Positions 50,877 through 50,948 of a DNA stretch of 64,000 nt are shown here, piece after piece. A model generated the notes under the pieces. That model was not told the origin of the DNA. It made no database searches and worked only from the letters and a program-made list of their open reading frames with translations. Both the position numbers and the translations under genes were made by a program. Position 1 is the first letter of the stretch, and each line of letters begins with the position of its first letter. Origin of the DNA: a virus; the IMG/VR virus record IMGVR_UViG_3300045988_034415, positions 82,807 through 146,806 of that record; one strand, 5' to 3'.

Positions 50877-50948
50877 GCCCCATTACTTCAGTGGTAGAAG
50901 AGCAAATTCTAAACTTGTATGGCGTTGGTTCGAGTCCAACATGGGGCA
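50877..50948 (+). tRNA. amber suppressor-type tRNA, anticodon CUA
   Basis: Acceptor GCCCCAT/ATGGGGC, D-arm CTTC-AGTGGTA-GAAG, anticodon loop TTCTAAA (U33, CUA, A37), 5-nt variable loop, T-arm GTTGG-TTCGAGT-CCAAC. Confidence 0.7.

What the first reader, a model, noticed from the sequence alone, without database searches (positions are those of the whole stretch)
50877..50948. Amber-suppressor-type tRNA (anticodon CUA) in the tRNA array
The cloverleaf is clean apart from an A31-C39 closing mismatch, and the anticodon loop UUCUAAA places CUA at positions 34-36. A phage CUA tRNA implies either stop-codon recoding (TAG read as a sense codon, as reported for some crAss-like and other gut phages) or readthrough of specific TAG stops. 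In this window almost all genes end in TAA/TGA and the long structural ORFs are intact under the standard code, so any recoding would be limited or would act on genes outside the window. The only two TAG-terminated genes here (25235..25729 and 26526..28778) both have unusual downstream frame relationships.
Basis: partly seen in the sequence, partly recalled or inferred. Interest (0 to 1): 0.75.

Follow-up and report, generated by a model that had tools for sequence, protein, structure and literature searches.

The report
Amber-suppressor tRNA in standard-code crAss-like phage
A gut phage that uses the normal genetic code carries a well-conserved tRNA that should read the TAG stop codon; this has already been reported for this phage group, and what the tRNA does is still unknown.

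Summary
The tRNA is real. ARAGORN calls anticodon CTA at 50877-50949 (+), and it scores 62.7 bits, full length, on Rfam tRNA. The window belongs to a ~186-kb Zeta crAss-like phage of the human gut. I rebuilt a pseudo-complete genome (185,569 bp, 29 tRNAs) from relatives 98-99.8% identical where they overlap; it shows no recoding. Standard-code ORF coverage is 0.921, against 0.937, 0.932 and 0.926 with TAG, TGA or TAA read as sense. This matches a 2025 paper (PMC12386605), which reports a CTA tRNA without suppression in all but one genome of its clade 8, so the finding is already known.

What I add:
- Three diverged versions of the tRNA keep CUA-A37-A38. Eight of 22 pairs change on both sides and stay paired, including tertiary 19-56. 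The tRNA is under selection, not decaying.
- The 31/39 mismatch is conserved in all three versions.
- The body is not the Gln type (U1) found in six amber-recoded relatives. It looks Lys- or Arg-like.
- All 22 TAG-ending ORFs lie on the + strand and none of 64 on the late strand. Suppressor-free crAss-like controls have 22 of 123. Sister lineages break this rule.

The in-frame fusion at 25727 looks coincidental. The function is unresolved; partial UAG read-through is the best guess.

The parts
50877..50949 (+). tRNA with anticodon CUA (amber-suppressor type). A73 is at 50948 and C74 at 50949; CCA is not encoded.
   Evidence: ARAGORN; Rfam RF00005 62.7 bits; identical in 18 IMG/VR contigs; compensatory changes in diverged lineages.
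50909..50911 (+). Anticodon CTA (positions 34-36), followed by A37 A38 C39. All of these are invariant in the three diverged tRNA types.
   Evidence: Alignment A1; sequence.
50906..50914 (+). Positions 31 (50906, A) and 39 (50914, C), the closing 'pair' of the anticodon stem. It is never a standard pair in any lineage (A.C, C.C, A.C).
   Evidence: the count of structure pairs; cmscan NC line.
50951..51022 (+). tRNA-Met(CAT), starting 2 nt after the suppressor and presumably co-transcribed. It is present or absent among near-identical relatives, whereas the suppressor is in every locus that covers the slot.
50522..50839 (+). 105-aa ORF ending in TAG, 38 nt upstream of the tRNA. The TAG is conserved in relatives, with a back-up TAA 6 codons on.
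43447..63862 (+). tRNA array holding the suppressor: 24 tRNAs in the window, and 29 in the reconstructed genome. It is interspersed with small ORFs, a tmRNA and a RAGATH-34 RNA.
25235..25729 (+). 164-aa ORF ending in TAG, in frame with the next ORF (25742-26284). It is a candidate read-through fusion, but I judge it coincidental.
26526..28778 (+). 750-aa SLT-domain ORF ending in TAG; read-through would add 38 codons. The homologue in MT835470.1 has a different C-terminal module and ends in TGA.
53782..54093 (+). 103-aa ORF ending in TAG.
58570..59463 (+). 297-aa ORF ending in TAG. A second TAG follows at +3 codons and a TGA at +5.
62531..63598 (+). 355-aa PurZ-like adenylosuccinate synthetase ORF ending in TAG.

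Best explanation
This is a genuine elongator-type tRNA with anticodon CUA, kept by selection in a ~186-kb Zeta crAss-like gut phage that otherwise uses the standard genetic code.

Shown:
- The tRNA folds as a canonical cloverleaf.
- Its anticodon and 3' loop (CUA-A37-A38-C39) are invariant across three lineages that differ at 17-23 of 73 positions, and nearly all stem changes are compensatory.
- The genome has no in-frame TAG codons that need decoding.
- No release factor or aminoacyl-tRNA synthetase was found among the ORFs searched; a CCA-adding-like enzyme and RNA-repair proteins are present.
- The tRNA body is not the Gln type used by amber-recoded relatives.

Inferred:
- The tRNA is transcribed with the + strand tRNA array, matured with CCA added, and charged by a host synthetase.
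- By E. coli identity rules (U35 plus A73, with no GlnRS acceptor or G10 elements) the amino acid is most likely Lys, and otherwise Gln.
- It competes with release factor 1 at UAG and causes partial read-through of TAG-terminated host mRNAs and of the phage's own 22 TAG-ending genes on the + strand (the strand of the replication, nucleotide-metabolism and tRNA genes).
- This genome's late virion genes are untouched because none ends in TAG.
- The benefit to the phage is unknown. It could be perturbing host proteins, including defence proteins, or tuning early-gene products.
- The conserved 31/39 mismatch probably keeps suppression weak, which would fit a stable rather than transitional state.
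For: tRNA calls and scores: (62.7, 59.7 and 56.8 bits for the three types).

Conservation: 25 loci from this clade carry the tRNA, in the same slot in all those inspected. There are three sequence types, with 8 of 22 pairs changed on both sides, including tertiary G19-C56 -> A19-U56. 95.5% of cells are paired, 0 of 500 shuffles reach this, and slid controls give at most one such pair.

No recoding: coverage is 0.921 in the standard code against 0.937, 0.932 and 0.926 for TAG, TGA or TAA as sense on the 185,569-bp reconstruction. MT835470.1 is 97.7% coding in the standard code. There are no consistent internal TAGs in lineages A-D, while the same method finds TAG aligned to Gln in distant recoded relatives, 140 of 340.

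Not Gln type: six suppressors from recoded crAss-like phages all start with U1 and have a Gln-like D-arm; this tRNA has G1-C72, C2-G71 and A73. Database look-alikes are tRNA-Lys or the phage's own tRNA-Arg(UCU).

Stop-codon layout: 22 of 156 + strand ORFs end in TAG against 0 of 64 on the - strand (p=0.0004). Suppressor-free crAss-like controls have 22 of 123 late genes ending in TAG (p=6e-5).

Literature: PMC12386605 reports a CTA tRNA without suppression in all but one clade 8 genome (the exception is possibly incomplete). It argues the state is stable and proposes a host-directed role.

Partner genes: CCA-adding-like, PNKP and HAD_SAK_2+YqeY proteins.
Against: Nothing here shows expression, charging or UAG decoding.

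The TAG-free late block is not conserved. In sister lineages with the same tRNA, TerL, the small ORF after it and the 192-aa gene before it end in TAG. Non-TAG to TAG switches are as frequent in late genes (5 of 31) as in + strand genes (13 of 91).

TAG stops are not followed by back-up stops more closely than other stops (p=0.96) or than in controls (p=0.49).

UAG is rare in highly expressed genes anyway (PMC8954436).

Lineage B has C33 instead of the near-universal U33, and the 31/39 mismatch should lower decoding efficiency.

The amino-acid assignment rests on E. coli rules and weak similarity: Lys-like 0.70-0.73, Arg-like 0.68-0.73, Gln-like 0.58-0.62.
Confidence: 0.55

Rival explanations
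1. Incipient recoding ('suppressor pre-emergence'). The tRNA was acquired or created recently and the lineage is at the first step towards reading TAG as sense in late genes.
For: Distant relatives (TerL 42-61% identical) are clearly TAG-recoded in the late block. Codes switch at short phylogenetic distance in the Zeta group (PMC7886860). In sister lineages B, C and D, TAG replaces a Gln codon near the C-terminus of TerL (CAA) and of the small ORF after it (CAG), inside the conserved protein length. This genome's late genes have no TAG stops, so the codon is 'free' there.
Against: The tRNA predates the split of three lineages (17-23 substitutions with compensatory changes), yet none has accumulated internal TAGs. 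PMC12386605 makes the same argument. The tail after TerL's TAG in lineage B has diverged at all four codons, as expected if TAG acts as a stop there. The tRNA is not the Gln type that recoded relatives use.
Confidence: 0.15
2. Programmed read-through of particular phage genes. The tRNA exists to make C-terminally extended or fused isoforms, for example 25235-25729 fused to 25742-26284, or the SLT-domain protein plus 38 residues.
For: TAG-25727 is followed by an open frame through the next gene. This TAG is conserved in 21 relatives.
Against: Only 1 of 22 TAG-ending ORFs fuses, which is about the chance expectation for close-spaced genes. In some near-identical relatives the extension stops after 39 or 72 codons. 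The downstream ORF has its own ATG, and the two proteins show no similarity. The other extensions run into tRNA genes or intergenic DNA.
Confidence: 0.1
3. Not a UAG decoder. Because 31/39 never pairs, the anticodon loop is effectively 9 nt. The RNA might then read another codon (the loop contains UUCUAA, the loop of tRNA-Arg UCU) or a quadruplet, or act outside translation, for example as a decoy for an anticodon nuclease.
For: The 31/39 mismatch is conserved. The body is 72-76% identical to the phage's tRNA-Arg(UCU). Lineage B lacks U33. The phage encodes tRNA-repair proteins.
Against: CUA-A-A-C is invariant while the two bases 5' of it vary (UU or CC). That fits positions 32/33 of a CUA loop better than positions 33/34 of a UCU loop. 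U32/C32 opposite A38 are the common combinations (established tRNA knowledge). Both ARAGORN and the covariance model place CUA at 34-36. The phage already has a tRNA-Arg(UCU).
Confidence: 0.1
4. A neutral relic of a formerly TAG-recoded ancestor that reverted to the standard code.
For: Recoded lineages surround this clade (Table 1 of PMC12386605).
Against: The tRNA is under clear purifying selection: it is identical in 18 contigs while its flanks vary, and it has 8 compensatory pairs. It is retained while neighbouring tRNAs come and go. It is not homologous to the Gln-type suppressors of recoded relatives.
Confidence: 0.05

Closest known systems
CTA suppressor tRNAs of 'clade 8' Zeta crAss-like phages (proposed Echekviridae), PMC12386605 (2025)
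   Same: Genome size (reconstruction 185.6 kb against 164-188 kb), GC (36.8%), tRNA count (29), human-gut source, a CTA tRNA and no suppression in the genome. This window almost certainly comes from that clade.
   Different: The passages and table I read give no sequence analysis of the tRNA. They call it 'non-functioning', and for the Lera group the paper states that TAG is rare and closely followed by another stop. Here the tRNA shows strong covariation, TAG ends about 10% of ORFs (22 of 220), and back-up stops are not enriched.
Gln-type amber suppressor tRNAs of code-15 crAss-like phages (e.g. cr4_1 and cr52_1; Yutin 2021 PMC7886860; Borges 2021 preprint; Peters 2022 PMC9523058)
   Same: A phage-encoded CUA tRNA in a crAss-like gut phage, with A37 A38 in the loop.
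   Different: Those tRNAs have U1 (pairing with A72) and a Gln-like D-arm, often sit next to TerL, and serve genomes whose late genes are full of in-frame TAG aligned to Gln. This one has G1-C72, C2-G71 and A73 and a conserved 31/39 mismatch, sits in the early tRNA array, and serves no in-frame TAG.
'Suppressor pre-emergence' in standard-code crAss-like phages (alpha-group OKSC01000115, tRNA-Gln TTG->TTA; Yutin 2021)
   Same: A suppressor tRNA present with no sign of reassignment.
   Different: That case is one genome with a fresh point mutation in a tRNA-Gln. This tRNA is old, shared by three diverged lineages, and not Gln-derived.
Classical E. coli amber suppressors made from non-Gln tRNAs (own knowledge: Normanly/Abelson suppressor series; Yarus 'extended anticodon')
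   Same: A CUA anticodon with U33, A37 and A38. Charging of such tRNAs tends to default to LysRS or GlnRS through U35.
   Different: Those are laboratory or mutant alleles. This is a natural, conserved phage gene with a mismatched 31/39 position.

Membership tests
Canonical elongator tRNA (Rfam RF00005) | Full-length cloverleaf scoring above the family threshold | tested here: met
   62.7 bits against a gathering score of 29, model positions 1-71. The diverged types score 59.7 and 56.8 bits.
Canonical elongator tRNA (Rfam RF00005) | Stems maintained by compensatory change; tertiary nucleotides present (U8, A14, G15-C48, G18, 19-56, T54-A58) | tested here: met
   8 of 22 pairs change on both sides, including 19-56; 0 of 500 shuffles reach this. 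The invariant columns include U8, A14, G15, C48, T54 and A58.
Amber suppressor tRNA | CUA at positions 34-36 of a 7-nt loop with U33 and a purine at 37 | tested here: met
   The loop is UUCUAAA. CUA, A37 and A38 are invariant in all types. Lineage B has C33.
Amber suppressor tRNA | Aminoacylated and able to read UAG on the ribosome | not testable with these tools
   Needs tRNA sequencing, an acylation assay, an amber reporter or proteomics.
Code-15 (TAG->Gln) recoded phage | Low standard-code coding density that is rescued by reading TAG as sense | tested here: not met
   0.921 against 0.937, no better than the TGA (0.932) or TAA (0.926) controls. Recoded relatives go from 0.35-0.63 to 0.82-0.92.
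Code-15 (TAG->Gln) recoded phage | In-frame TAG at conserved positions of core genes | tested here: not met
   No consistent internal TAG in real genes of lineages A-D. The positive control gives TAG aligned to Gln in 140 of 340 cases.
Code-15 (TAG->Gln) recoded phage | Suppressor tRNA with a tRNA-Gln body (U1-A72, G2/G3, G10) | tested here: not met
   This tRNA has G1-C72, C2-G71, C3-G70 and C10 or G10. Six suppressors from recoded phages all start with U1.
tRNA-Pyl / pyrrolysine system | Atypical tRNA-Pyl architecture (3-nt variable loop, 6-bp anticodon stem, small D-loop without G18G19) plus pylS/pylBCD genes | tested here: not met
   The tRNA has a canonical 5-nt variable loop, G18G19 and a T-loop. 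No Pyl genes appeared among the ORFs searched with Pfam, but that search was not exhaustive. ARAGORN's 'Pyl' label is only its name for CUA.
Zeta crAss-like clade 8 (PMC12386605) | 164-188 kb genome, GC 35.4-36.9%, 20-29 tRNAs, CTA tRNA, no suppression | tested here: met
   The reconstruction is 185,569 bp, GC 36.8%, with 29 tRNAs including CTA and no recoding. See Table 1 of the paper.
Zeta crAss-like clade 8 (PMC12386605) | Phylogenetic placement by TerL or whole-genome tree with the named genomes; polA | not tested
   The named genomes (ct3H02 and others) are not in the searchable collections. TerL is about 30% identical to other Crassvirales. A 712-aa ORF looks like PolA by eye only.

The most novel reading that the evidence does not exclude
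The tRNA is a Lys-type (or otherwise non-Gln) amber suppressor with a deliberately weakened anticodon stem. A whole clade of abundant standard-code gut phages would keep it as a host-directed tool: it extends TAG-terminated host proteins, perhaps defence or lysis-timing factors. The phage's own late genes escape because they avoid TAG, and the neighbouring phage tmRNA clears ribosomes that run off host messages. Stop-codon read-through would then be a phage takeover mechanism, separate from genetic-code change.
Probability: 0.15. Interest if true: 0.7.

Novelty: already known. Interest (0 to 1): 0.33.

Why it matters
Zeta crAss-like phages are among the most abundant viruses in the human gut. 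A suppressor tRNA conserved in genomes that have nothing to suppress is a small open puzzle. It bears on how phage genetic codes change (whether the tRNA comes first) and on whether phages use read-through against their hosts. The covariation, the non-Gln body and the stop-codon layout shown here turn 'non-functioning suppressor' into a testable claim. They do not change the fact that the observation itself is already published.

Tried and rejected
1. Genome-wide or partial TAG recoding: rejected.
2. Read-through fusion 25235->26284: judged coincidental.
3. 'TAG stops are backed up by a nearby second stop': not supported in this genome (p=0.96; against controls p=0.49).
4. 'Late genes avoid TAG because of the suppressor': true for this genome (0 of 64; controls 22 of 123), but sister lineages with the same tRNA have late-gene TAGs, so I keep it only as a weak lead.
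5. Recent duplication of a neighbouring tRNA: rejected; the best identity is 65%.
6. Identity from the acceptor stem: uninformative, because the same acceptor occurs in Thr, Arg, Leu(CAA), Met and other phage tRNAs.
7. Identity from residues aligned to near-C-terminal TAGs: mixed (Q, Q, Q, R, E, E, K, V, M), so no call.
8. Homology with the suppressors of recoded relatives: rejected.
9. cr4_1 and cr52_1 as controls: dropped, because both turned out to be amber-recoded.
10. Release factor or aaRS partner: none found.
11. An excess of tolerated TAG nonsense variants in the population: none. Unique internal TAG, TAA and TGA events are about equal.
12. NC_024711 was not available as a control.

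Full report
**Observation.** ARAGORN reports 25 tRNA calls in the window, one of them a spurious antisense call. Among them is a 73-nt gene at 50877-50949 (+) with anticodon CTA. Rfam's tRNA model matches 50877-50948 over its full length at 62.7 bits. The tRNA lies 38 nt after a 105-aa ORF that ends in TAG, and tRNA-Met(CAT) starts 2 nt after it. CCA is not encoded. Six ORFs of at least 60 aa in a non-overlapping set do so.

**What genome this is.** There is no close DNA match to the tRNA region among deposited phages. The large terminase (TerL) is about 30% identical to Crassvirales terminases and 99.9% identical to that of MT835470.1, a 117-kb unannotated human-faecal scaffold. That scaffold is collinear with window 1-28256 at about 99% identity and extends 87 kb beyond the window's left edge. 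I used protein anchors to fetch relatives 98-99.8% identical where they overlap from IMG/VR and ENA metagenomes. With them I assembled a pseudo-complete genome of 185,569 bp, GC 36.8%, with 29 tRNAs. These figures match the 'clade 8' Zeta crAss-like phages in Table 1 of PMC12386605: 164-188 kb, GC 35.4-36.9%, 20-29 tRNAs, predicted Bacteroides hosts.

**Is there recoding?** No.
- ORF coverage of the reconstruction is 0.921 in the standard code. It is 0.937, 0.932 and 0.926 when TAG, TGA or TAA is read as sense.
- MT835470.1 alone is 97.7% coding in the standard code.
- I ran tblastn with all lineage proteins against 185 relative loci. There is no consistent in-frame TAG in real genes of the close lineages. 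The few recurrent cases fall in small ORFs at the start of the ORF or overlapping tRNA genes.
- The same method finds hundreds of in-frame TAGs in distant relatives, mostly aligned to Gln (140 of 340 at 50-70% identity).
- Those distant relatives (TerL 42-61% identical) are plainly recoded in the late block. Coverage rises from 0.35-0.63 to 0.82-0.92 with TAG as sense, and a subset responds to TGA instead.

The tRNA therefore sits in a family where amber recoding is common, but this genome does not use it. PMC12386605 states the same for clade 8. It calls such tRNAs 'non-functioning', rejects the 'early stage of code change' idea, and speculates about weakening the host. Yutin et al. (PMC7886860) had already noted suppressors without reassignment. 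The finding as stated is therefore already known.

**Is the tRNA alive?** Yes.
- With the anticodon left free, a pattern search found 18 IMG/VR contigs. All carry CTA in the same slot, and all 73 nt are identical, while the bases just outside the tRNA vary and the neighbouring tRNA-Met is present or absent.
- Anchoring on the SPFH gene 5 kb downstream brought in two diverged lineages (SPFH 69% and 75% identical), with the tRNA in the same slot.
- The three types differ at 17-23 positions. Of 22 pairs, 8 change on both sides and stay paired, including the tertiary G19-C56 -> A19-U56 pair. 95.5% of cells are paired, no shuffle out of 500 reaches this, and slid registers give at most one such pair.
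- CUA, A37, A38 and C39 are invariant.
- The 31/39 position is never a standard pair (A.C, C.C, A.C), so it is a conserved feature and not damage.
- One lineage has C32 C33, which loses the usual U33.
- All three types remain good tRNAs on the covariance model.

**Which amino acid?** Unresolved, but not the usual answer.
- Six suppressors from demonstrably amber-recoded crAss-like phages all begin with U1 and have a Gln-like D-arm, like the phage's own tRNA-Gln(UUG). Four come from Zeta-like relatives; the other two are cr4_1 and cr52_1, annotated tRNA-Gln in RefSeq.
- The window's tRNA has G1-C72, C2-G71, C3-G70 (U-A in one lineage), C10 or G10, and A73.
- Its acceptor stem occurs in phage tRNAs of many isotypes and is not diagnostic.
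- The only blastn hits in the phage collection are two tRNA-Lys(UUU) genes.
- The only tRNA in 185,579 species' genomes that fits the body pattern is a tRNA-Lys(CUU), one base away from CUA.
- Overall identity to the phage's tRNA-Arg(UCU) is just as high: 0.68-0.73, against 0.70-0.73 for the Lys-like tRNAs and 0.58-0.62 for Gln.
- From my own knowledge of E. coli identity rules, ArgRS needs A20 and C35, which are absent here. GlnRS favours U1-A72, G2, G3, G10 and G73, also absent. LysRS uses U35 and A73, which are present. Lys is my best guess, and it is a weak one.

**Stop-codon layout.**
- All 22 TAG-ending ORFs of the reconstruction lie on the + strand, which carries the replication, nucleotide-metabolism and tRNA genes. 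None of the 64 - strand ORFs (virion, packaging and giant RNAP-like genes) ends in TAG (p=0.0004; against TGA, p=0.014). Off-frame TAG is equally common on both strands.
- Suppressor-free, standard-code crAss-like phages end late genes in TAG often: cr1_1 9 of 62, DAC15 9 of 33, crAss001 4 of 28. Pooled, that is 22 of 123 against 0 of 64 (p=6e-5).
- This would fit late genes being shielded from an active suppressor, but the pattern is not conserved. In sister lineages with the same tRNA, TerL ends in TAG at codon 753 (aligned to CAA-Gln here, with TAA four codons on). The small ORF after TerL has TAG aligned to CAG-Gln with TGA one codon on. The 192-aa gene before TerL ends in TAG in 15 near-identical contigs.
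- Switches to TAG are as frequent in late genes as in + strand genes (5 of 31 against 13 of 91).
- Back-up stops are not enriched.
- UAG is rare in highly expressed genes in general (PMC8954436).

I therefore treat the layout as a lead, not as evidence of mechanism.

**Read-through of specific genes.** Only 25235-25729 would fuse with its neighbour on read-through. One in 22 is about the chance rate, and the frame is closed after 39 or 72 codons in some near-identical relatives. The downstream ORF has its own start codon, and the two proteins show no similarity.

**Partners.** No release factor or aaRS was found. A CCA-adding-like enzyme, a PNKP kinase-phosphatase and an RNA-repair HAD+YqeY protein are encoded. 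A tmRNA lies in the same array.

**Verdict.** This is a real, conserved, CUA-bearing tRNA in a standard-code Zeta crAss-like phage, and it is already described in the literature. The recoding interpretation is refuted for this genome. The function is open, and weak, general UAG read-through is the most likely activity. The added details are testable but do not make the finding new: covariation, the conserved 31/39 mismatch, the non-Gln body and the TAG-free late strand.

Noticed in passing
window 44087-44611 (+): A phage-encoded tmRNA: Rfam RF00023 at 83.7 bits, 525 nt with about 270 nt of insertions and a G3.U70 acceptor. ARAGORN does not detect it. The passages searched in the two crAss-like papers do not mention tmRNA, but RefSeq annotates one in cr52_1.
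   Followed up: partly
window 46487-46594 (+): A RAGATH-34 RNA, a near-perfect match to the Rfam consensus (120.9 bits), between the tmRNA and a 564-aa ORF (PHROG 'RNA-binding protein').
   Followed up: no
window 62531-63598 (+): An adenylosuccinate-synthetase-like ORF that matches the PHROG family annotated as PurZ (E=5e-45). This hints that the phage might make 2-aminoadenine (Z) DNA. I did not look for DatZ or MazZ partners.
   Followed up: no
window 61773-62530 (+): A 249-aa ORF with DUF723 and treble-clef zinc-finger domains is present in the window and about half of the near-identical relatives, and cleanly absent from the rest. This suggests a mobile (homing-endonuclease-like) insertion just upstream of the PurZ-like gene.
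   Followed up: partly
window 39450-39495: A 46-bp stretch is 96-100% identical to unannotated DNA in otherwise unrelated crAss-like phages (cr118_1, cr113_1, cr10_1 and others). There is no Rfam match.
   Followed up: partly
window 48723-48797 (+): The 'tRNA-Leu(CAA)' has a short variable arm and U37, unlike bacterial type-II tRNA-Leu. Its counterpart in a diverged relative (L170 457-531) is called with a 2-base anticodon. Similar short-arm CAA tRNAs occur in other phages (L027, L032, L037, L042).
   Followed up: no
window 26526-28778 (+) vs MT835470.1 113887-116832: The 750-aa SLT-domain protein shares its first ~577 residues with a 981-aa homologue in the near-identical scaffold. Identity stops at window 28256, so the C-terminal module has been swapped, and with it the stop codon (TAG against TGA).
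   Followed up: partly
L189-L197 and others (TerL); L100-L103 (688-aa NrdD-like gene): In many near-identical relatives TerL spans 3268 nt instead of 2271, and the 688-aa gene spans 3025 nt instead of 2064. These insertions of about 1 kb (intron or intein) are absent from the window's lineage copy.
   Followed up: no
L185 17400-22253 (lineage B, downstream of the portal block): Standard-code ORF coverage drops in this region. Several opposite-strand ORFs appear only when TGA is read as sense (coverage 0.74 -> 0.84).
   Followed up: no
L171 4523-4595: A more distant relative (SPFH 49% identical) has no CTA tRNA in this region. It has instead a Gln-like tRNA with an 8-nt loop UUUAAAAA (ARAGORN anticodon 'taaa'), possibly an ochre-type suppressor.
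   Followed up: no
window 58059-58135 (-): The ARAGORN tRNA-Arg(TCG) call is antisense to tRNA-Ser(GCT) at 58032-58120 and has no Rfam match. It is a spurious mirror call.
   Followed up: yes
pseudo-genome early region (MT835470.1 ~11-31 kb): This region encodes a CCA-adding-like enzyme, a PNKP kinase-phosphatase and a HAD_SAK_2+YqeY 'RNA repair' protein. None of the 24 window tRNAs encodes CCA.
   Followed up: partly
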